IMG/VR virus record: IMGVR_UViG_3300045988_001146
Coordinates: 1 to 6,078 of that record
DNA length: 6,078 nt
Reading direction: 5' to 3' (one strand)
DNA from: a virus
Below are positions 1,084 to 6,078 of this stretch, piece by piece. Position numbers and translations under genes: made by a program. Under the pieces are notes generated by a model. It worked only from the letters and a program-made list of their open reading frames with translations, did not search any database and had not been told where the DNA came from. Positions within the stretch are counted from its first letter, which is position 1, and each line of letters starts with the position of its first letter.

Positions 1084-2763
1084 TTAAACCATACGATTAA
1101 ATATATTATTAGCATCATTAAGTTGCTTATGCTTAATCATATCACGACAGAATGTCGAACTACGGTACCGGAGTTGCTCAAGAAGTTGAATCGTTTCACG
1201 TGAAATATTCGACAAGACATCAACCTCTTGCCCGTTCTGAGGCAACGCAAACATACAATCCGATATGTCTGGGTATCGGGAACGGAGGTCATATGCATTT
1301 CGTAAACTTTCATAATTCGCTTTCTGTTCATATTCTATGCCTGTTTTAATGATAAACATAATACGACCGGAGTAAGCACTAACATCAGAGCCGAAGAGAG
1401 GGAGATGCCAGTTACGGAAGAACTTATGGACATATAGGAACAACCGATACAGTTTATTAATATAAGACTCAATATCGACATCACTAGAACTGTTGCAGAA
1501 CCTAGTAAGACACCGAGAAGCATGTAATATAATCTTGTCATCATCAGTAAGAATAGAATTAGCCTTAAGATATTGATAATAAGTACGAACAAGACTCAAA
1601 ACCGAGTCCTGTTCATAGCCAACGAATCCGAACCTTGCAATTCTCTTTGGCGTTGAATGCACAGCGCAAAGAATTCGAGCAATCGTAGTACTATCGTCAT
1701 TGCGAGCAGACGAGAATCGGGGCAATAAGGTACGGATATACGACATGGGTGGAGTTGACCGAACACTGACACCATTGAAATTATAGACTCTTCCGTTAAC
1801 GACAGAATCGATTTTTTGCTCAATTTGCGCATAAGGGTCTTCGTCTTCAACGAAATTGCAACCCTTCTCAAAGAATCCGACAGACGCTCGAGACCTGGGT
1901 CTAAACGCGCGGCATGAGCGATATAACAAGGGAGAAGCACACAAGCAGTTAACGTAACTCGCAACGTACGAGCCAGCGCCACCAACGGAACGTTGGAAAT
2001 CTGAACGACCGAGTTTCCAACTCTTATCGTGACAGTATCGTAAAACCTCGGAGACTTTGTCCGAGTTTGTGAATAATAGGAGATGATAATGCGGGCGGAA
2101 ATGCACGGGTCCATACTCACCCACAGCGTAGAAATGTAACGTTTCATAAGAACCTAATTTCAAAGACAAATGTTTACGTAAACGTTTAATATAATTCTGA
2201 ACATCAACATAATTCAGAAAGGGAATAAGGTTATCACGACCGTATTGTGCAGAAGCGGGATAATCCGTCTTGTCAACGGCCTGCGTCTTATTGATAAAAC
2301 TACGAATAGCATCCATACTAAGAAACCAATTATCCTTAACAGGGAGATATTCCTTAATTTCACGGTCAAACGGCACAGTGCCTTGAACCTGTTCGAAAAA
2401 TATATGACGCAACATGGAGTTATCATCACATTGATACTCGGAAACAGGGATATACTGATGATGTTCATTACCAAAATGAATATCTCCTGAAATACCTAAG
2501 GCATCCTCATAATCACTATGGAGAACACTGCAATTCATAAGAGGAAGATGTTCATTGTCATAAGTAAGAGTTACAAAATAAGAATACTTGAAAGCACTTC
2601 CTGCGGTCTTCACACGCATAGACGCCTTTTTAGCTTTCTTATGGATACAATAATCACATTGACCACAATCTACAGCAATGCGCGCACCAGTGTACTTGTT
2701 CGTAATAAACGAACGATGCTGACAATGATCAACAGTCTTAAGTAAATCAGGAGAAAATTTCAT
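1084..2763 (-). CDS. VP4: Replication initiation protein VP4 (HUH rolling-circle endonuclease, phiX174 A-like).
   Basis: 559-aa ORF. Motif I is FVTLTY (aa 63-68, nt 2560-2577). The DVQNYIKRLRK...FYAVGEYG block precedes motif II HYHLLLF (aa 225-231, nt 2071-2091, checked by reverse-complementing the DNA). Motif III is the two-tyrosine YVASYVNC (Y266/Y270, nt 1954-1968), close to phiX174 A YVAKYVNK as I recall it. There is an N-terminal Cys/His cluster (CQH...CGQCDYC). Confidence 0.93.
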   Translation of the reverse strand: MKFSPDLLKTVDHCQHRSFITNKYTGARIAVDCGQCDYCIHKKAKKASMRVKTAGSAFKYSYFVTLTYDNEHLPLMNCSVLHSDYEDALGISGDIHFGNEHHQYIPVSEYQCDDNSMLRHIFFEQVQGTVPFDREIKEYLPVKDNWFLSMDAIRSFINKTQAVDKTDYPASAQYGRDNLIPFLNYVDVQNYIKRLRKHLSLKLGSYETLHFYAVGEYGPVHFRPHYHLLLFTNSDKVSEVLRYCHDKSWKLGRSDFQRSVGGAGSYVASYVNCLCASPLLYRSCRAFRPRSRASVGFFEKGCNFVEDEDPYAQIEQKIDSVVNGRVYNFNGVSVRSTPPMSYIRTLLPRFSSARNDDSTTIARILCAVHSTPKRIARFGFVGYEQDSVLSLVRTYYQYLKANSILTDDDKIILHASRCLTRFCNSSSDVDIESYINKLYRLFLYVHKFFRNWHLPLFGSDVSAYSGRIMFIIKTGIEYEQKANYESLRNAYDLRSRYPDISDCMFALPQNGQEVDVLSNISRETIQLLEQLRYRSSTFCRDMIKHKQLNDANNIFNRMV

Positions 2764-2765
2764 AA

Positions 2766-3074
2766 CTATTTGCGTTTATAAATTACCTGATGACGATTAC
2801 GGCCACCAAACGAAATATGAATAAACGTAGGATATAATATCAGCTGGTCAAATACATGAATATTGTCCGAATAACTATGGATATGCTCAAGCAACCGACT
2901 ATAAGAAGTAGAACCATAAGGCTTAATATCAATAGCCTCTCCAAACAGATGCTGCGAATTAGGGACACCACCGGCAGCCTTATTTTCAGCAATAGAGCGT
3001 TTAGCACTTGTTATCGTAAAATGCAAGTTAAAAGACAACAGATGCTCAAGAAAATCCATAAGAGCACTATTCAT
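2766..3074 (-). CDS. Small zinc peptidase of the M15 family (Peptidase_M15_3/VanY-like fold); candidate peptidoglycan hydrolase (endolysin).
   Basis: 102-aa ORF containing ITSAKRS (conserved Arg26), NKAAGGVPNSQH, H42-x6-D49 (SQHLFGEAIDI) and a distal His in FIHISF (H86). This matches the S.R...N..GG...S.H..G.A.DI...H zinc-binding layout of M15 peptidases. No signal peptide or TM segment is present. Third codon positions are T-rich, as in the core genes. Its start overlaps the stop of the upstream small ORF (ATGA), and it ends 2 nt before the VP4 start. Confidence 0.78.
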   Translation of the reverse strand: MNSALMDFLEHLLSFNLHFTITSAKRSIAENKAAGGVPNSQHLFGEAIDIKPYGSTSYSRLLEHIHSYSDNIHVFDQLILYPTFIHISFGGRNRHQVIYKRK

Positions 3075-3154
3075 AATCCAATAGCATTAAGAATATAACC
3101 AAGAGCCGCCGAAACAGCGCCAATCACAATTTTCCAAATATTACTACTTTTCAT
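3071..3154 (-). CDS. 27-aa single-pass membrane peptide (MKSSNIWKIVIGAVSAALGYILNAIGL); candidate holin-like or lysis accessory protein.
   Basis: This is the downstream part of the 75-aa track ORF (3071..3298), starting from the internal ATG at 3154. It has a short polar N-terminus followed by a 22-residue hydrophobic helix. By hand count, T occupies 17/27 third codon positions (about 63%), matching bona fide genes. The upstream 48 codons of the same frame have only 13/48 T3 and 21/48 G3. The stop overlaps the peptidase start (ATGA at 3071-3074). The start lies 8 nt upstream of the stop codon of the 65-aa ORF (the two ORFs overlap by 11 nt). Confidence 0.4.
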   Translation of the reverse strand: MKSSNIWKIVIGAVSAALGYILNAIGL

Positions 3155-3341
3155 TACCGTTCTGATTTTTAAATTCAACAAAATCATCTTCCTCTTTAAT
3201 CGAGTCCACAACAACAATAAAACCCAATGGACAAAAACGTTCGCAATAGCGTCCAAGACCATCGAGAGAACTAACGACATAAGGCGAAAAAGCATCACGA
3301 CCAGTGTTTCTGTCTTTAACTGAAATAATAAATCTTTGCAT
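3144..3341 (-). CDS. Hypothetical 65-aa soluble protein with an acidic C-terminus; first gene after the promoter.
   Basis: The ORF is MQRFIISVKDRNTGRDAFSPYVVSSLDGLGRYCERFCPLGFIVVVDSIKEEDDFVEFKNQNGNEK. T3 is 36/65 (about 55%) by hand count, equal to VP1, which favours this frame over the overlapping 75-aa frame. It lies directly downstream of the predicted promoter and AT-rich leader. It has a faint resemblance to small non-structural (VP5-type) proteins of gokushovirus-like phages, which I cannot verify here. Confidence 0.55.
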   Translation of the reverse strand: MQRFIISVKDRNTGRDAFSPYVVSSLDGLGRYCERFCPLGFIVVVDSIKEEDDFVEFKNQNGNEK

Positions 3342-3390
3342 AACTGTAATAATTTAAATAATTAATAATAATTGTAACTTCTACACAGTG

Positions 3391-3421
3391 CAAAGATACG
3401 AACTATTTTCATAAATCCAAA
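3391..3421 (-). promoter_or_regulatory. Bacteroides-type sigma-A promoter: -33 TTTG (3421-3418), 19-nt spacer, -7 TATCTTTG (3398-3391).
   Basis: The minus strand reads TTTG-GATTTATGAAAATAGTTCG-TATCTTTG, matching the published Bacteroides consensus TTTG / TAnnTTTG. An A8 tract lies just upstream (3438-3431 on the minus strand). A leader of about 45 nt, AT-rich and without a Shine-Dalgarno sequence, runs to the ATG at 3341. This is the only sizeable non-coding region in the genome. Confidence 0.6.
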
Positions 3422-3572
3422 GAAAAACTATTTTTTTTAGATTATACCATAGAGTGTGAGTTGTGCGTTTATAGACAAGAAACGGGAGAATCCGAGAGGA
3501 TAACTCGAATTTGCTTCGCACACAACTAGGGGCTTCGCTTAATTAACAAGTGGATGTATACAAAGGTGTATA

Positions 3573-3727
3573 GGCACGGCAAGGCAGGGACTGTCTTGCC
3601 TTTGCGCACTCCGTGCTAAAATACCGGAGCGGGGCGCTCCTATAAAGAGGTCGCTCCGCTCCATTTTTCGATCAGGCCCTACGCGGGCGGCGGGTGTATA
3701 TCGCTCAAACGCCGCGATGGGCTCCTA
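3573..3727 (-). other. GC-rich hairpin cluster in the single intergenic region; candidate complementary-strand origin, terminator or regulatory structure.
   Basis: Hand count gives 95/155 G+C (61%) against roughly 40% elsewhere. Hairpin 1 is GGCAAGGC (3578-3585) / GTCTTGCC (3593-3600), with outer GCACGG (3574-3579) / CCGTGC (3611-3616) as an alternative. Hairpin 2 is GGAGCG (3626-3631) / CGCTCC (3635-3640); CGCTCC occurs again at 3652-3657 and 3657-3662. Hairpin 3 is GCCC..CGCGG (3676-3686) / CCGCG..GGGC (3711-3722) with a 2x2 internal loop. Confidence 0.5.
3616..3640 (-). terminator. Possible intrinsic terminator of the genome-length operon.
   Basis: The minus strand reads GGAGCG-CCC-CGCTCC followed by GGTATTTTAG, about 100 nt downstream of the VP2 stop. 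The stem is only 6 bp and the T tract is short and interrupted. On the plus strand, GGAGCGG (3626-3632) / CCGCTCC (3656-3662) followed by ATTTTT would act in the opposite direction. Confidence 0.35.
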
Positions 3728-3743
3728 GTCCTAAAGAATGTAT

Positions 3744-4859
3744 TTATTTACGGCCAACAGCATTACTAATTCCTTGGAATATACGGGTACCGTAATCAAT
3801 AGCATTACGCAATTCATAAGAATTGACATCCTTCTGCTTCTGTTTAGATGACCATTTATAATAATCACGCAAGGCCTTATCTTTAGAATACTCCATATTC
3901 TTAAGGACATTAATATTCTTCGAATCCCATAATGAACCTAAGCCACGAGCACGATTAGACTGAATATTAGCATAGATAAGAGAGTCAGCAGTCTGAGAAG
4001 CAATCCTATTATTAATACGAATGCCGTTCGTTTCGGCAGCTGTCTTAATAGCTAGAGCCATCTGATTCTTATATTGCGCCTCGGTCAAAGAACCTTGTGC
4101 ATACAGATTAGCAAGTGTCTGGCCTTTAATAAACAAATCAGCCTGTTGTTGCTCATCAAGATATTTATTAAGTACCTGTTGAGCCTCAGAATCAAGCAGA
4201 ATCTGCGCCTCTTGGGCAGAAGTCAAACGACCGGCAAACTCCATATTCTTAAGTTCCTGATACTCCTTGGACTGGTCCAATAAAGCGGAACGTCTACCAG
4301 TAGAAGCATTCCAATAACCTGACTGACCAACACCAATGTTACGATAATTGGTATCGCCCAAGATCTGTTGCATCTTATACGGAGTAAGAGCAGCGTTCTG
4401 TTCAGCATTAAGCATAGCAGCACGAGCCTGTGCCATAGAAGCAAGAGCAGTACCGACATCAGAGAAATCGGGACGGAAAGCCTGTAAACTAGGAGCGGAG
4501 GAGGCAGAAGCAGCAGCACCACCAGAAGCAGGAGATCTAGAACCAGCCATAGCAGCAGAACCTTGGACAAATGGATTAAGACCACGAGAAATCATTGCAT
4601 TGGGGGAATTATAAGAATTATTCATTCCCCACATCTTTTCCTGCCAGTCACGCTGAATCTGTGCCTGCTGAGCATTAAACGCATTATTCTCGCGGTTAAT
4701 ATCAATACTGGTCTGATTGGTCTTATTCTGCGAAGAAGCACCAATAGCATTACCGGCAAGTGAAGCACCGGCAGCAATAATACCTCCAAGAACAAGCGGA
4801 GCAATATGCTTTTCGGAGTGTCCCATTAAGGGACTTTCTCCAATATCATAGAACCTCAT
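3744..4859 (-). CDS. VP2: Minor capsid / DNA pilot protein VP2 (H-like).
   Basis: 371-aa ORF. It has an N-terminal Gly/Ala-rich hydrophobic segment (IAPLVLGGIIAAGASLAGNAIGA). This is followed by a Q/N/A-rich region and WQEKMWGMNNSYNSPNAMISRGLNPF, which fits the YNSP...GLNP signature I associate with VP2 of gokusho/alpavirus-like phages. The remainder is long, helical and Q/A/L-rich. The start overlaps the stop of the upstream gene (ATGA at 4856-4859). Confidence 0.8.
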   Translation of the reverse strand: MRFYDIGESPLMGHSEKHIAPLVLGGIIAAGASLAGNAIGASSQNKTNQTSIDINRENNAFNAQQAQIQRDWQEKMWGMNNSYNSPNAMISRGLNPFVQGSAAMAGSRSPASGGAAASASSAPSLQAFRPDFSDVGTALASMAQARAAMLNAEQNAALTPYKMQQILGDTNYRNIGVGQSGYWNASTGRRSALLDQSKEYQELKNMEFAGRLTSAQEAQILLDSEAQQVLNKYLDEQQQADLFIKGQTLANLYAQGSLTEAQYKNQMALAIKTAAETNGIRINNRIASQTADSLIYANIQSNRARGLGSLWDSKNINVLKNMEYSKDKALRDYYKWSSKQKQKDVNSYELRNAIDYGTRIFQGISNAVGRK

Positions 4860-5299
4860 TGAGCACCGGCGTCAGGGGCGGGCGACTCATCGGGCGCTGA
4901 CTGTTGCTCTGCCAACATTTCCTGTGCGTACTTGGTAATTTCAGACTTTTCACTAGCCAGCTGCTGCAAAACAGCCTGTCGTTCCGACATAGTCTGACAA
5001 TGACGGGAAATAACACAATTAAAACGTTGCTCATCAGTCATACCATCCATAACAGTAGACTGGGTAGGATGCATCCGGGCAAGAATATTCTGAACATTCA
5101 TGTCACCAAGAAGACGGCGATACTTCTCCTGATTAAGAAGAATCTGCGTCATATCGCATTGAATCAAATCACCGTCAAGAGACTCATCATACATAACAGT
5201 ATCGTATACAGACTGTTGATAGCAAGGATGTTCTTCAACCAACTCGGGAATAACCTCATTCTTAATATAATCGGGGTTCTTATAAGCAAAATTTCTCAT
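4856..5299 (-). CDS. Putative internal scaffolding protein (VP3-like); assignment by position and character only.
   Basis: 147-aa acidic ORF lying between VP1 and VP2. It starts 11 nt after the VP1 stop and is coupled to VP2 by an ATGA overlap. The C-terminal tail is Q/E/A/P-rich. I recognise no diagnostic motif. Confidence 0.45.
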   Translation of the reverse strand: MRNFAYKNPDYIKNEVIPELVEEHPCYQQSVYDTVMYDESLDGDLIQCDMTQILLNQEKYRRLLGDMNVQNILARMHPTQSTVMDGMTDEQRFNCVISRHCQTMSERQAVLQQLASEKSEITKYAQEMLAEQQSAPDESPAPDAGAQ

Positions 5300-5310
5300 A
5301 ACAAAAACAA

Positions 5311-6078
5311 TTAATAAGGTAAACCATTTCTATCCAAATTCTGAACAGCATATACTTGAAAATTAACATTACACAATAACTGATCAAATGCAACGGAACA
5401 ATTGGCAGCATCAATCTGGGGAACAAAAATAGAGTTCAGCTGTTGAGGACGAACTTTCATAGACTGATAAGACCAAGCACCGGCGGAAGTCAACACCTGC
5501 CAACCGTCAAGAGGAGCAGCCCAAGACTGATAGGCAGCACCAGCACGGAATCCGGCATGAACAGTATCAATATTAGATTTCCATTGCCAATAACGAAGGT
5601 TATAACCGAGAGAACCTGCAACGTTACGTCCGGGATTATTCTGAAGATTAAGAGCGGGAACAGCCTGCATGCCAAGTTGATCAAATGCAGGTTGCGGAAA
5701 ATCAGATACAGAAGTCACAGTCAGCTGGGGAGCCTGACCAGTCAATTCCCAATCCAACATAGGTACGGCATGATAGACACACATAATAACTTGATGTTCA
5801 GCACCACAATCATAAGTAAGAACATGACCAGAATTACTAGATACACCTTTGCCGGCAATAGAAGCCTGAGAAGAATCAGTATCAAGATTGGTATTAACCA
5901 CTTCGTTGATATTAATAACACTGGACCAACCTCCAATATAATGAGCATGATTACCCATATACTCGGGGGCTTTAATACCAAACTGGGCAGCCATCTGATC
6001 CGAATAATCCTTAGAACTAAATTGTACTACTTCTTTCCAGCGCTGGAGATATTCAGTGGCACGAAGTGAAAGGGCAGA
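5311..6078 (-). CDS. VP1: Major capsid protein VP1, C-terminal segment (unique part 5311-5979; 5980-6078 duplicates 1-99).
   Basis: The track ORF 5311..5994 starts at an internal Met. The frame stays open to the window edge and joins 1..1071 in frame. It contains FGIKAPEYMGNHAHYIGG, the conserved FG(V/I)...PE(Y)(L/I)GG block that follows LQRW.E, and ends ...NLDRNGLPY with a TAA stop at 5313-5311. Confidence 0.95.
   Translation of the reverse strand, partial: SALSLRATEYLQRWKEVVQFSSKDYSDQMAAQFGIKAPEYMGNHAHYIGGWSSVININEVVNTNLDTDSSQASIAGKGVSSNSGHVLTYDCGAEHQVIMCVYHAVPMLDWELTGQAPQLTVTSVSDFPQPAFDQLGMQAVPALNLQNNPGRNVAGSLGYNLRYWQWKSNIDTVHAGFRAGAAYQSWAAPLDGWQVLTSAGAWSYQSMKVRPQQLNSIFVPQIDAANCSVAFDQLLCNVNFQVYAVQNLDRNGLPY
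5901..5930 (+). other. phiX174-origin-like sequence on the strand antisense to the genes.
   Basis: Plus-strand 5906-5922, TTGATATTAATAACACT, is identical to 17 consecutive nt of the 30-nt phiX174 viral-strand origin as I recall it (CAACTTGATATTAATAACACTATAGACCAC). The flanks are partly similar (C..C.TTG upstream, GACCA.C downstream). Confidence 0.4.
5980..6078. repeat. Terminal redundancy, copy 2 (identical to 1-99).
   Basis: Exact 99/99 identity with the window start. Most likely the overlap left when a circular contig is written out as linear sequence. Confidence 0.97.

What the first reader, a model, noticed from the sequence alone, without database searches (positions are those of the whole stretch)
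3573..3727. 61% GC hairpin island inside the only intergenic region of a roughly 40% GC genome
About 155 nt of sharply different composition lie between the VP2 stop and the promoter. The island contains at least three stable stem-loops with mutually exclusive alternative pairings, because CGCTCC occurs three times against a single GGAGCG(G). The octamer GGTGTATA occurs at 3565-3572, immediately flanking the island, and again at 3693-3700 in the loop of hairpin 3; a related GGATGTATAC is at 3552-3561. In phiX174 and G4, hairpin clusters in intergenic DNA are the complementary-strand origins (PriA n-prime site, DnaG primase site). By analogy this island is a candidate ssDNA-to-dsDNA conversion origin. 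It could additionally act as a bidirectional terminator, an iteron-like Rep or host-factor binding site, or a small structured RNA. On the coding-sense strand the loop of hairpin 3 reads TTTGAGCGATATACACC, which contains G/ATAT as at the phiX nick site, so it is an alternative viral-strand nick candidate. The composition jump also raises the possibility of host-derived DNA.
Basis: partly seen in the sequence, partly recalled or inferred. Interest (0 to 1): 0.65.

Follow-up and report, generated by a model that had tools for sequence, protein, structure and literature searches.

The report
Conserved DNA hairpin cluster, gut microvirus
The GC-rich island is real and forms the larger part of a roughly 290-base non-coding element conserved in over 200 gut microvirus genomes, which folds into many short DNA hairpins on the packaged strand and most likely marks where the host starts copying the incoming single strand, though this has not been tested experimentally.

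Summary

The island is about 60% of a larger conserved element, window 3449-3737. This element occurs in 206 distinct sequences, all from microvirus-sized contigs. It is absent from 185,579 bacterial and archaeal genomes, from plasmids and from Rfam.

Comparative analysis gives 11 short helices: 47 pairs, 99% Watson-Crick, 24 with compensatory changes and only 0.5% wobble pairs. The single-sequence "hairpin 3" is replaced by three small helices.

On the T-rich packaged strand the element carries three GCGNAGC "mini-hairpins". These are a DNA-specific motif known from the priming sites of phage G4, St-1/alpha3 and RSF1010 ssiA. It also carries two hairpin-plus-TATACACC units. One such unit is shared at 95% identity with otherwise unrelated microviruses.

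The element is modular, and some relatives place a canonical terminator upstream of it.

Best reading: a single-stranded-DNA initiation signal (complementary-strand origin), possibly doubling as a terminator. The nick-site and host-DNA ideas are not supported. No function has been tested.

The parts
3700..3718 (-). hp3': 5-bp helix ATCGC/GCGAT with a 9-nt loop, the first hairpin after the VP2 stop. On the viral strand it is immediately followed by box A.
   Evidence: Pair 3703-3715 covaries (G-C 139, A-T 15, C-G 6, no mismatch class above 1) and the other pairs are invariant. Helix 1 is 100% paired.
3693..3700 (-). Box A: TATACACC on the viral strand (GGTGTATA on +), directly 3' of hp3'.
   Evidence: GATATACACC(C/T/G)G is found in 162 of 164 sequences. 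TATACACC occurs 393 times on the viral strand and 3 times on the complement in 217 genomes. The same box follows a GNA-capped hairpin in viruses whose Rep is about 28% identical.
3676..3692 (-). hpA (3676-3679/3685-3688) and hpB (3682-3684/3690-3692): two overlapping mini-helices. They form either a very compact pseudoknot or mutually exclusive hairpins.
   Evidence: 3677-3687 (C-G 161, G-C 2, A-T 1), 3679-3685 (C-G 160, T-A 4) and 3682-3692 (C-G 151, T-A 7, G-C 5) show no unpaired cells. The competing MFE pairs break whenever these positions vary.
3653..3659 (-).
   Evidence: GCGGAGC 150, GCGAAGC 13, GCGTAGC 1 of 164: only the N of the GNA loop varies. The motif family is described in PMC13037366.
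3626..3640 (-). hp2: 6-bp helix GGAGCG/CGCTCC with a 3-4 nt loop. On the viral strand it is followed by the conserved GGTATTTTA (3625-3617). It is a terminator-like site, and a longer alternative pairing with 3652-3662 is possible.
   Evidence: 3627-3639 covaries (G-C 104, A-T 53). The terminator scan finds it on the - strand (same site in L004). A subgroup of relatives replaces it with GCGAAGC or GCGTAGC. The 11-nt inverted repeat 3626-3636/3652-3662 is 91% complementary.
3606..3616 (-). hpX: GCAC-GGA-GTGC on the viral strand, a 4-bp helix with a C-GGA-G triloop in this genome.
   Evidence: 3608-3614 covaries (A-T 120, G-C 44) and the other pairs are invariant. Loops are GGA, GAAG, GTAG, GACG or AGA in relatives.
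3574..3605 (-). hp1: a 10-bp GC-rich hairpin (3578-3587/3591-3600) plus a 3-bp outer extension (3574-3576/3603-3605). On the viral strand it is followed by box B after 5 nt.
   Evidence: 3582-3596 covaries (A-T 103, G-C 61) and 3583-3595 covaries (G-C 158, A-T 2). It is present in the MFE folds of both strands.
3565..3572 (-). Box B: second TATACACC on the viral strand.
   Evidence: (C/T)CTATAC(A/C)CC is seen in all sequences listed. The direct repeat with box A is 128 nt away.
3548..3564 (-). Variable spacer and insertion/deletion hot spot. It holds a third, degenerate box (GTATACATCC, 3561-3552) and the palindrome TGTATACA.
   Evidence: The spacer is deleted in Dulem 242/255/239/254. MG945572 carries a 31-nt insertion, and other relatives carry longer ones (total element length up to about 440 nt).
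3449..3547 (-). Left module, outside the reported coordinates. P1 (3459-3465/3521-3527) encloses P2 (3489-3496/3504-3511, loop TTATCCT), mini-hairpin M1 (3513-3519, GCGAAGC) and a conserved single-stranded CTTGTCYATAAACG (3466-3488). Then come CCCCTAG and mini-hairpin M2 (3532-3538, GCGAAGC).
   Evidence: P1 has three covarying pairs and P2 has five. M1's outer pair is G-C 90, C-G 56, A-T 15. Variants are GCGAAGC, CCGAAGG, GCGAAAGC and CCGGAGG. The module is kept in relatives that lack the island. The same architecture is kept in viruses with about 28% identical Rep.
3391..3421 (-). Bacteroidota-type promoter TTTG-N19-TATCTTTG with an upstream A-tract. It bounds the element on its 3' side (viral sense).
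   Evidence: It is the only full match to TTTG-N17-23-TAnnTTTG on either strand of the genome.
3744..3746 (-). Stop codon of the VP2 (pilot protein) gene. It bounds the element on its 5' side (viral sense).
   Evidence: ORF 3744..4859 on the - strand. Its homologues are annotated as VP2 / DNA pilot protein in related records.

Best explanation
Proposal: the island is the larger part of a non-coding control element (window 3449-3737) that works as folded single-stranded DNA on the packaged strand, which is the window's - strand.

Inferred mechanism: after injection the viral strand is coated by host SSB. The short GC-rich hairpins of the element (hp3', hpA/hpB, M3, hp2, hpX, hp1, M2, M1, P2/P1) stay folded. 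Several of them are capped by extra-stable GNA loops. They expose two hairpin-plus-TATACACC units at which a host enzyme lays down the RNA primer for complementary-strand synthesis. That enzyme could be primase, the PriA primosome or RNA polymerase; which one is unknown. In this sense the element is a single-strand initiation signal, working like the G4 complementary-strand origin, RSF1010 ssiA or the sso of rolling-circle plasmids.

In this genome there is no separate terminator after VP2. Hairpin hp2 (or its longer alternative) plus GGTATTTTA probably also ends the genome-length transcript.

The adjacent left module holds CTTGTCYATAAACG in a loop closed by a covarying helix. It is the better candidate for the Rep (viral-strand) origin.

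What is shown: the conservation, the helices, the motif content, the strand bias and the modularity.

What is inferred: priming, the enzyme involved, termination, and the division of roles between the modules.
For: (1) Distribution. There are 206 distinct copies, all on contigs of 9.6 kb or less and mostly about 6 kb. There are none in 185,579 genomes or in plasmids.

(2) Conservation. Against Dulem 238 the island is 72% identical and the left module 79%. VP1 and Rep are 69% and VP2 is 59%.

(3) Structure.
- 47 pairs are 98.96% Watson-Crick, and 24 pairs carry compensatory changes. Slid controls give 21-35%.
- On 30 diverse sequences 95.9% of cells are paired, against 22-43% in controls. 17 pairs change on both sides, and 0 of 500 shuffles reach this.

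(4) DNA rather than RNA.
- Only 38 of 7671 cells (0.5%) are G.T or A.C.
- Three 2-bp GCGNAGC hairpins lie on the viral strand within about 290 nt. Their variants (GCGAAGC, CCGAAGG, GCGAAAGC, CCGGAGG, GCGGAGC, GCGTAGC) are exactly the DNA mini-hairpin family. That family is reported at the priming sites of G4, St-1/alpha3 and RSF1010 ssiA and in N4 hairpin promoters (PMC13037366).
- In a subgroup the 6-bp hp2 is replaced by GCGAAGC or GCGTAGC.

(5) Strand.
- The - strand is 34% T overall and 53% T at third codon positions.
- TATACACC occurs 393 times on the viral strand and 3 times on the complement.

(6) Portable unit. A 41-nt GNA-capped hairpin plus TATACACC is 95% identical between bajarodmic 410 / Dulem 257 and Dulem 262. 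Their non-coding regions otherwise differ, and their Reps are about 28% identical to this one.

(7) Modularity. Relatives with 84-86% identical Rep lack the island. They carry a terminator plus a TTCCGAAAGTA box instead.

(8) Terminators upstream. Dulem 226/243/238/241 have a stem-plus-T-run terminator between the VP2 stop and the island, so the island there lies between terminator and promoter.

(9) Literature. Conserved hairpins with compensatory changes in other microvirus clades were tentatively linked to complementary-strand synthesis (PMC9865509).
Against: - No experiment bears on this element, and no primer start site, host or host enzyme is known.
- Wobble counts do not pick a strand (21 G.T against 17 A.C on +). 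The strand call rests on GNA loops, the TATACACC bias and base composition.
- A few candidate long-range pairs (3525-3533/3721-3729, 3699-3719) would be G.T-rich on the + strand, not on the viral strand.
- Relatives without the island and without any TATACACC show that the island is dispensable for the clade. The essential priming signal may therefore lie in the shared left module, with the island only an accessory.
- In this genome the island starts 7 nt after the VP2 stop, so it is probably transcribed and an RNA-level role cannot be excluded.
- There is no sequence similarity to G4 or phiX origins or to plasmid sso.
Confidence: 0.55

Rival explanations
1. RNA-level element only. The island is the 3' untranslated end of the single long transcript. 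Its hairpins terminate transcription and protect the mRNA from 3' exonucleases, and it has no role in DNA replication.
For: - It lies between the last gene (VP2) and the only Bacteroidota-type promoter.
- hp2 plus GGTATTTTA is called terminator-like on the - strand.
- Relatives lacking the island have canonical terminators at this position.
- The hybrid L122 keeps just the hp2/long-hairpin segment with a T6 run.
- On the viral strand the A3627 variants keep a G.U in the long alternative hairpin.
Against: - A terminator does not need six further conserved helices, invariant linkers and two TATACACC boxes.
- 2-bp GCGNAGC hairpins whose outer pair covaries are stable as DNA, not as RNA.
- hp2 itself is replaced by such a mini-hairpin in a subgroup.
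- G.U pairs are almost absent, whereas the genuine terminators of relatives appear to contain several on manual inspection.
- Four relatives have a separate terminator upstream of the island.
- The RNA fold z-score is only -2.3.
Confidence: 0.2
2. Double-stranded or cruciform DNA site for a protein. The TATACACC boxes act as iterons and the inverted repeats as binding or extrusion sites for Rep or a host factor. The island would then be an accessory to the viral-strand origin or a transcriptional control region.
For: - There are three copies of TATACAYC, two of them 11 nt apart (3572-3565 and 3561-3552).
- Strict Watson-Crick pairing without wobble on either strand is what cruciforms or symmetric duplex sites would need.
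- The element adjoins the promoter and the left module.
Against: - Relatives with 84-86% identical Rep lack the island and every TATACACC, so Rep does not need it.
- The box is shared between viruses whose Reps are only about 28% identical. That fits a host factor acting on ssDNA better than Rep specificity.
- The third box is deleted in several relatives.
- The GNA-loop bias is strand-specific.
Confidence: 0.12
3. A free-standing non-coding RNA gene on either strand, for example an antisense or regulatory RNA or an anti-defence decoy.
For: There are multiple covarying helices with conserved linkers. Some candidate long-range pairs are G.U-compatible only on the + strand.
Against: - No Rfam family matches at E<=10.
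- No Bacteroidota-type promoter faces the element on either strand.
- Wobble pairs are almost absent.
- The helices are very short (2-8 bp) with DNA-type loops.
Confidence: 0.06
4. An artefact or foreign DNA: a misassembled chimera, or a piece of host chromosome captured by this genome.
For: Only the composition jump (61% against 41% GC).
Against: - The same element, in the same place and orientation, is in 264 loci from many independent studies and animal hosts.
- It evolves with compensatory changes.
- There were 0 matches in 185,579 bacterial and archaeal genomes for either of two motifs, and none in plasmids.
Confidence: 0.01

Closest known systems
Complementary-strand origin (oric) of phage G4 and of St-1/alpha3, the primase (DnaG)-dependent origins
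   Same: - A cluster of stable hairpins in a non-coding stretch of a microvirus, acting on the packaged strand.
- It contains a GCG(N)NAGC mini-hairpin. 16 relatives even carry G4's own GCGAAAGC at M1.
- A conserved short sequence sits just 3' of a hairpin, where G4 has its CTG start site.
   Different: - No sequence similarity. A blastn search of the phage collection found only this clade.
- There are more and shorter hairpins, 11 helices of 2-10 bp.
- The box is TATACACC rather than CTG, and it is duplicated.
- The host is presumably Bacteroidota.
- Neither the primer nor the enzyme has been mapped.
Single-strand initiation signals ssiA/ssiB of RSF1010 and related plasmid ssi sites
   Same: A short hairpin capped by CCGAAGG, with the recognised bases next to the stem. 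CCGAAGG is the second most common M1 variant here (46 of 164).
   Different: ssiA is a 40-nt site read by a plasmid-encoded primase (RepB'). This genome has no primase gene among its ORFs, and the element is about 290 nt long.
Single-strand origins (ssoA, ssoU, ssoT, ssoW) of rolling-circle plasmids
   Same: - 150-300 nt, non-coding and heavily structured, with function expected to be strand-specific.
- Cassette-like: close relatives carry different, unrelated versions next to the same Rep system, as seen here.
   Different: There is no similarity to any plasmid. The sso consensus elements (RS-B, CS-6) were not looked for systematically. The sso types are read by host RNA polymerase, and no promoter mimic was found here.
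phiX174 primosome assembly site (n'/PriA site) and the hairpins reported in reekeekee- and roodoodoo-microviruses (PMC9865509)
   Same: A conserved hairpin or hairpins with compensatory substitutions in a microvirus intergenic region, proposed to start minus-strand synthesis.
   Different: Those are one or two hairpins. Here there is a multi-hairpin element with mini-hairpins and a repeated box. None of these sites outside phiX174 has been tested.
Rho-independent transcription terminators
   Same: hp2 (GC-rich 6-bp stem) followed by GGTATTTTA on the mRNA strand, at the end of the transcription unit.
   Different: The T run is only 4 long. The hairpin is one of many. It can be replaced by a 2-bp DNA mini-hairpin, and some relatives have a separate, stronger terminator upstream.

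Membership tests
G4-type primase-dependent complementary-strand origin | Cluster of stable hairpins in non-coding DNA of the packaged strand | tested here: met
   There are 11 helices with covariation. DNA fold z-scores are -4.5 and -4.8. The viral strand is identified by T-richness.
G4-type primase-dependent complementary-strand origin | Mini-hairpin motif (GCGAAAGC / GCGTTAGC) at the priming hairpin | tested here: met
   GCGAAGC occurs twice and GCGGAGC once on the viral strand. M1 variants include GCGAAAGC in 16 sequences. The motif definition comes from PMC13037366.
G4-type primase-dependent complementary-strand origin | Sequence homology to G4/St-1/alpha3 oric | tested here: not met
   A blastn (word 11, E<=0.1) search of 3340-3745 against 50,697 phage records matched only 34 records of this clade.
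G4-type primase-dependent complementary-strand origin | Primer made by DnaG starting at a defined trinucleotide 3' of the hairpin, on SSB-coated DNA | not testable with these tools
   This needs in vitro priming with host proteins. Only the position of TATACACC 3' of hp3' and hp1 is known.
Rolling-circle plasmid sso (ssoA/U/T/W) | Non-coding structured cassette of 150-300 nt, exchangeable between related replicons | tested here: met
   The island is present in 133 of 139 distinct relatives. It is replaced by unrelated sequence in 4, is partial in 1 and differs in 1. Rep is 84-86% identical in those without it.
Rolling-circle plasmid sso (ssoA/U/T/W) | Sequence similarity to known sso or consensus elements RS-B / CS-6 | tested here: not met
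   There is no plasmid match beyond two chance hits at E about 0.9. The consensus motifs themselves were not searched one by one.
Filamentous-phage (f1/M13) minus-strand origin | Hairpins that mimic a host promoter read by RNA polymerase | tested here: not met
   No TTTG-N17-23-TAnnTTTG match lies in the element on either strand. No sigma-70-like site falls within 3449-3737; the three promoter-like matches found in 3000-4000 all lie outside it.
DNA mini-hairpin motif (GCGNAGC / GCGNNAGC; CC..GG stems allowed) | Sequence rule: two G-C pairs closing a GNA or GNNA loop, with the inner pair C-G | tested here: met
   M1, M2 and M3 obey the rule on the viral strand. Variation is confined to the loop N and to swaps of the outer pair, G-C/C-G and less often A-T. 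The + strand reading (GCTTCGC) does not fit the rule.
DNA mini-hairpin motif (GCGNAGC / GCGNNAGC; CC..GG stems allowed) | Extraordinary thermal and nuclease stability of the folded DNA | not testable with these tools
   Stability is known for the synthetic oligomers (PMC13037366). It has not been measured in this context.
Rho-independent terminator | GC-rich stem-loop followed by a T run on the transcribed strand | tested here: inconclusive
   hp2 plus GGTATTTTAG passes the simple scan, but the run is T4 and interrupted. A stronger long form (3662-3652/3636-3626) is possible.
Rolling-circle (Rep) viral-strand origin of phiX174 type | Unique nick sequence of the CAACTTG/ATATTAATAAC type on the viral strand | tested here: not met
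There is no such sequence in the island. TATACACC is duplicated. The only 14/15 match to the phiX core is on the wrong strand inside VP1 and varies at synonymous sites.
Any Rfam RNA family | Covariance-model match | tested here: not met
   cmscan of the whole window at E<=10 gave two weak hits elsewhere (145-212 and 5278-5332) and none in 3342-3743. No tRNA or tmRNA was found.

The most novel reading that the evidence does not exclude
The GNA-capped hairpin followed by TATACACC may be a portable priming signal specific to the hosts of gut microviruses, presumably Bacteroidales. It would be the counterpart in that phylum of G4 oric or ssiA, read by a host primase or primosome whose recognition sequence is still unknown. 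On this reading the signal is shuffled as a cassette among microviruses whose replication proteins are only about 28% identical. The neighbouring P1-enclosed CTTGTCYATAAACG loop would be the Rep nick site. Together they would define the first complete set of replication signals for this very abundant group of human-gut phages.
Probability: 0.35. Interest if true: 0.7.

Novelty: new variant of a known kind. Interest (0 to 1): 0.55.

Why it matters
Microviruses of this type are among the commonest DNA viruses in the guts of humans and other mammals. Almost none are cultured, and nothing is known about how their single strand is converted to duplex DNA in hosts other than E. coli.

A sharply defined, strongly conserved element gives concrete, testable parts for that question:
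- mapped helices;
- a strand assignment;
- a candidate recognition box (TATACACC);
- natural "knock-out" relatives that lack the island.

It could also supply origin parts for single-stranded-DNA vectors in Bacteroidales. It adds natural examples, with evolutionary covariation, to the debated biological role of DNA mini-hairpins. Finally, it shows why automatic annotation calls spurious "hypothetical proteins" across this region in several deposited genomes.

Tried and rejected
- Known RNAs. tRNA/tmRNA and Rfam scans found nothing in the region.
- Protein coding. Some records annotate hypothetical proteins over the region. However, loop lengths differ by 1, 2 or 4 nt between relatives, and substitutions follow base pairing rather than codons. 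Rejected.
- Host origin or prophage. Two exact-motif scans of 185,579 genomes gave 0 hits, so no prophage junction could be examined. The plasmid search gave only chance hits.
- Strand assignment from wobble pairs. Inconclusive: 21 G.T against 17 A.C.
- Single-sequence MFE folds. They are right for hp1 and hpX but wrong for the hairpin-3 region, and they choose the long alternative for hp2.
- RNAalifold on 83 sequences gave different long-range helices on the two strands, which covariation did not support.
- Long-range pairings. 3525-3533/3721-3729 shows only one-sided C/T variation and overlaps P1 and M2. 3674-3679/3719-3724 is broken by the 3677 variants. Neither was accepted.
- A phiX-origin-like GTTGATATTAATAAC at + 5905-5919. 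It is antisense inside VP1 and varies freely at synonymous sites in relatives, so it is a chance match.
- A promoter mimic in the element. None was found.
- Literature searches for a prior description in Alpavirinae or Microviridae. None was found.
- Not used: covariance-model building, protein homology searches and structure prediction. They were not needed for the question.
Full report
**Context**

The window is a complete circular microvirus genome of 5979 nt with a 99-nt terminal overlap. All genes are on the - strand:
- Rep, 2763-1084 (Pfam REP_ORF2-G2P);
- the major capsid protein, 1071 through the junction to 5311 (Pfam Phage_F);
- a 147-aa protein;
- VP2, 4859-3744;
- small ORFs and an M15 peptidase.

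The - strand is 34% T, and 53% T at third codon positions. This is the usual signature of the packaged strand of microviruses, so "viral strand" below means the window's - strand.

The only long non-coding stretch is 3342-3743. The only full Bacteroidota-type promoter in the genome (TTTG-N19-TATCTTTG) lies at 3421-3391 on the - strand. The non-coding region therefore sits between the end of the last gene and the start of the single transcription unit.

**The observation**

It is correct. Positions 3573-3727 are 61.3% GC, the maximum of all 155-nt windows (mean 41.0%, sd 6.1%). The cited repeats are all present. Positions 3545-3745 fold much better than shuffled sequences as DNA on either strand (z = -4.5 and -4.8) and less so as RNA (z = -2.3). 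There is no tRNA, tmRNA or Rfam match in the region.

**Relatives**

- The non-coding region matches 34 GenBank microviruses from dog, human and lemur samples at 75-89% identity.
- All contigs carrying the element are 9.6 kb or shorter, and most are about 6 kb. Two larger contigs matched the left-module motif by chance only and do not carry the element.
- In total 264 loci give 206 distinct sequences.
- Two motifs gave no match in one genome for each of 185,579 bacterial and archaeal species. Plasmids gave only chance hits.

Misassembly and recent host origin are therefore excluded.

The conserved block is larger than the island, about 3449-3737. Against Dulem virus 238 (overall identity 67%) the island is 72% identical and the left part 79%. 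VP1 and Rep are 69% and VP2 is 59%.

**Structure**

On 164 sequences I tested ten helices defined by covariation:
- 47 pairs are 98.96% Watson-Crick;
- 24 pairs show compensatory double changes (460 cells);
- partners slid by 1-3 columns give 21-35%.

On an independent alignment of 30 diverse sequences in viral orientation (A2), the counting tool gave 95.9% of cells paired, against 22-43% for slid partners. 17 pairs had changes on both sides, and 0 of 500 shuffles reached the observed values.

In window coordinates the helices are:
- P1: 3459-3465/3521-3527
- P2: 3489-3496/3504-3511
- M1: 3513-3514/3518-3519
- M2: 3532-3533/3537-3538
- hp1: 3578-3587/3591-3600, with an outer 3-bp extension
- hpX: 3606-3609/3613-3616
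- hp2: 3626-3631/3635-3640
- M3: 3653-3654/3658-3659
- hpA: 3676-3679/3685-3688
- hpB: 3682-3684/3690-3692
- hp3': 3700-3704/3714-3718

Wherever its positions vary the pairs break (G.G, C.C, G.A). The same positions covary perfectly in hpA, hpB and hp3'. hpA and hpB overlap, so they form either a very compact pseudoknot or alternative hairpins.

GGAGCG pairs with the first CGCTCC (3627-3639: G-C 104, A-T 53). A longer alternative with 3652-3662 remains thermodynamically possible.

**DNA or RNA, and which strand**

G.T plus A.C cells make up only 0.5% of paired cells and are balanced between strands, so wobble pairs do not pick a strand. From general knowledge of RNA families, such a low wobble frequency is unusual for a structured RNA.

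Three helices have only 2 bp around a 3-nt loop. On the viral strand they read GCGAAGC (M1, M2) and GCGGAGC (M3). Across relatives:
- M1 is GCGAAGC (63), CCGAAGG (46), GCGAAAGC (16), ACGAAGT (15) or CCGGAGG (6);
- M2 is GCGAAGC (155) or GCGGAGC (8);
- M3 is GCGGAGC (150), GCGAAGC (13) or GCGTAGC (1).

This is exactly the family of extraordinarily stable DNA mini-hairpins. d(GCGAAGC) has a Tm of 76.5 C, and CC..GG stems are tolerated. A 2026 review reports this family at the priming site of G4 (GCGAAAGC), of St-1/alpha3 (GCGTTAGC) and of RSF1010 ssiA (CCGAAGG), and in the hairpin promoters of phage N4 (GCGGAGC) (PMC13037366).

Further points:
- hpX reads GCAC-GGA-GTGC.
- In a subgroup of relatives the 6-bp hp2 is replaced by GCGAAGC or GCGTAGC. 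That swap makes sense for DNA stability but not for an RNA terminator.
- TATACACC occurs 393 times on the viral strand and 3 times on the complement in 217 genomes.

**Modularity and depth**

Of 139 distinct relatives that carry the left module, 133 have the whole island. Four replace it with unrelated sequence. One hybrid (L122) keeps only the hp2 segment, and one is divergent. Those without the island have Rep 84-86% identical to this one.

Their replacement consists of a canonical terminator (a 16-17 bp stem plus a T run) followed by a conserved TTCCGAAAGTA box. They have no TATACACC anywhere.

Beyond a sharp gap in Rep identity (58% or more within the clade, below 30% outside), Dulem 257 and bajarodmic 410 still show two features:
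- the left-module architecture, GAGTTTGC - CCGAAGG - hairpin - CTTCTTGTCTTATATAC - GCAAACTC;
- a hairpin AACCGCGC-GTA-GCGTGGTT followed directly by ATACACC.

That 41-nt hairpin-plus-box unit is 95% identical in Dulem 262, whose non-coding region otherwise differs.

In this window the unit occurs twice: hp3' plus box A (3718-3693), and hp1 plus box B (3600-3565). A degenerate third box lies at 3561-3552, in a spacer that is an insertion/deletion hot spot.

**Transcription**

In this genome the island begins 7 nt after the VP2 stop, and hp2 plus GGTATTTTA is the only terminator-like site. In Dulem 226, 243, 238 and 241 a separate stem-plus-T-run terminator lies between the VP2 stop and the island. 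There the island sits downstream of a terminator and upstream of the promoter.

**Interpretation**

The best-supported reading is a single-stranded-DNA element on the packaged strand that directs the start of complementary-strand synthesis. It would work like G4 oric, plasmid ssi sites or sso cassettes. One hairpin probably doubles as the terminator in genomes such as this one.

The left module is more widely conserved. It holds CTTGTCYATAAACG in a loop closed by a covarying helix, which makes it the better candidate for the Rep origin. It also carries two of the three mini-hairpins, so the division of labour between the modules is open.

- G/ATAT lies in the hp3' stem;
- the box is duplicated in direct orientation, which would yield subgenomic circles if Rep cut there;
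- close relatives with nearly the same Rep lack it.

Priming, the enzyme involved, termination and the host are all inferences. Nothing has been tested experimentally.

**Prior knowledge**

I found no description of this element. One paper reports conserved hairpins with compensatory substitutions in other microvirus clades. It links them only tentatively to minus-strand synthesis (PMC9865509).

**Verdict**

The finding is real and the element is well defined. It is a new variant of a known kind of signal. Interest is moderate, mainly because it makes the replication start of a very abundant but uncultured phage group testable.

Noticed in passing
window 3449-3547 (- strand): The 100 nt next to the island form a separate, more widely conserved structured module. 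P1 encloses P2, a GCGAAGC mini-hairpin and a single-stranded CTTGTCYATAAACG, followed by CCCCTAG and a second GCGAAGC. The same architecture, with fully different helix sequences, occurs in viruses whose Rep is only about 28% identical (L305, L306, L308). This makes it a candidate viral-strand (Rep) origin.
   Followed up: partly
window 3391-3421 (- strand), A-tract 3431-3438: The only full match in the genome to the Bacteroidota promoter consensus TTTG-N19-TAnnTTTG, preceded by an A-run. It suggests a single transcription unit running once round the circle and a Bacteroidota host.
   Followed up: partly
window 3676-3692: Two mini-helices (hpA, hpB), each with compensatory changes, overlap so that they must form either a 17-nt pseudoknot or two exclusive hairpins. 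Loop lengths fit a pseudoknot slightly better on the viral strand.
   Followed up: partly
window 3548-3564; relatives L002, L012 and others: The spacer between the island and the left module is an insertion/deletion hot spot. It is deleted in several Dulem viruses. MG945572 carries a 31-nt insertion, and other relatives carry longer insertions that bring the element to about 440 nt.
   Followed up: no
L125, L129, L130, L134, L122 (non-coding region after VP2): Relatives without the island share a different conserved box, TTCCGAAAGTA (a C-GAAA-G core), between a strong terminator and the left module. It may be an alternative signal of the same function.
   Followed up: partly
window 5905-5919 (+ strand): GTTGATATTAATAAC matches the phiX174 origin core CTTGATATTAATAAC at 14 of 15 positions. 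However, it is antisense inside VP1 (it encodes VININ) and varies at synonymous sites in relatives, so it is judged a chance match.
   Followed up: yes
L308 (Dulem virus 262) 600-625: The non-coding region of this distant relative contains CTACTTGATATTATATG on the viral strand, close to the phiX174 nick sequence AACTTGATATTAATA, just after a GC hairpin. It may be a Rep nick site in that lineage.
   Followed up: no
window 1084-2763 (- strand): Rep is long (559 aa). It has an HUH motif (PHYHLLL) and a two-tyrosine motif (SYVASYV) like the phiX174 A protein, yet Pfam matches only residues 185-271. Rep identity among database relatives drops sharply from 58% or more to below 30%.
   Followed up: partly
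GenBank records PP511392, PP511799, PP511485, OP549867 (loci L004, L005, L009, L003): Several deposited genomes annotate 'hypothetical protein' ORFs across this structured non-coding element. Indels and base-pair-driven substitutions suggest these annotations are spurious.
   Followed up: partly
window 2766-3074 (- strand): A peptidase M15 gene lies between the small ORFs and Rep, as reported for some gut microviruses (PMC3394797).
   Followed up: no
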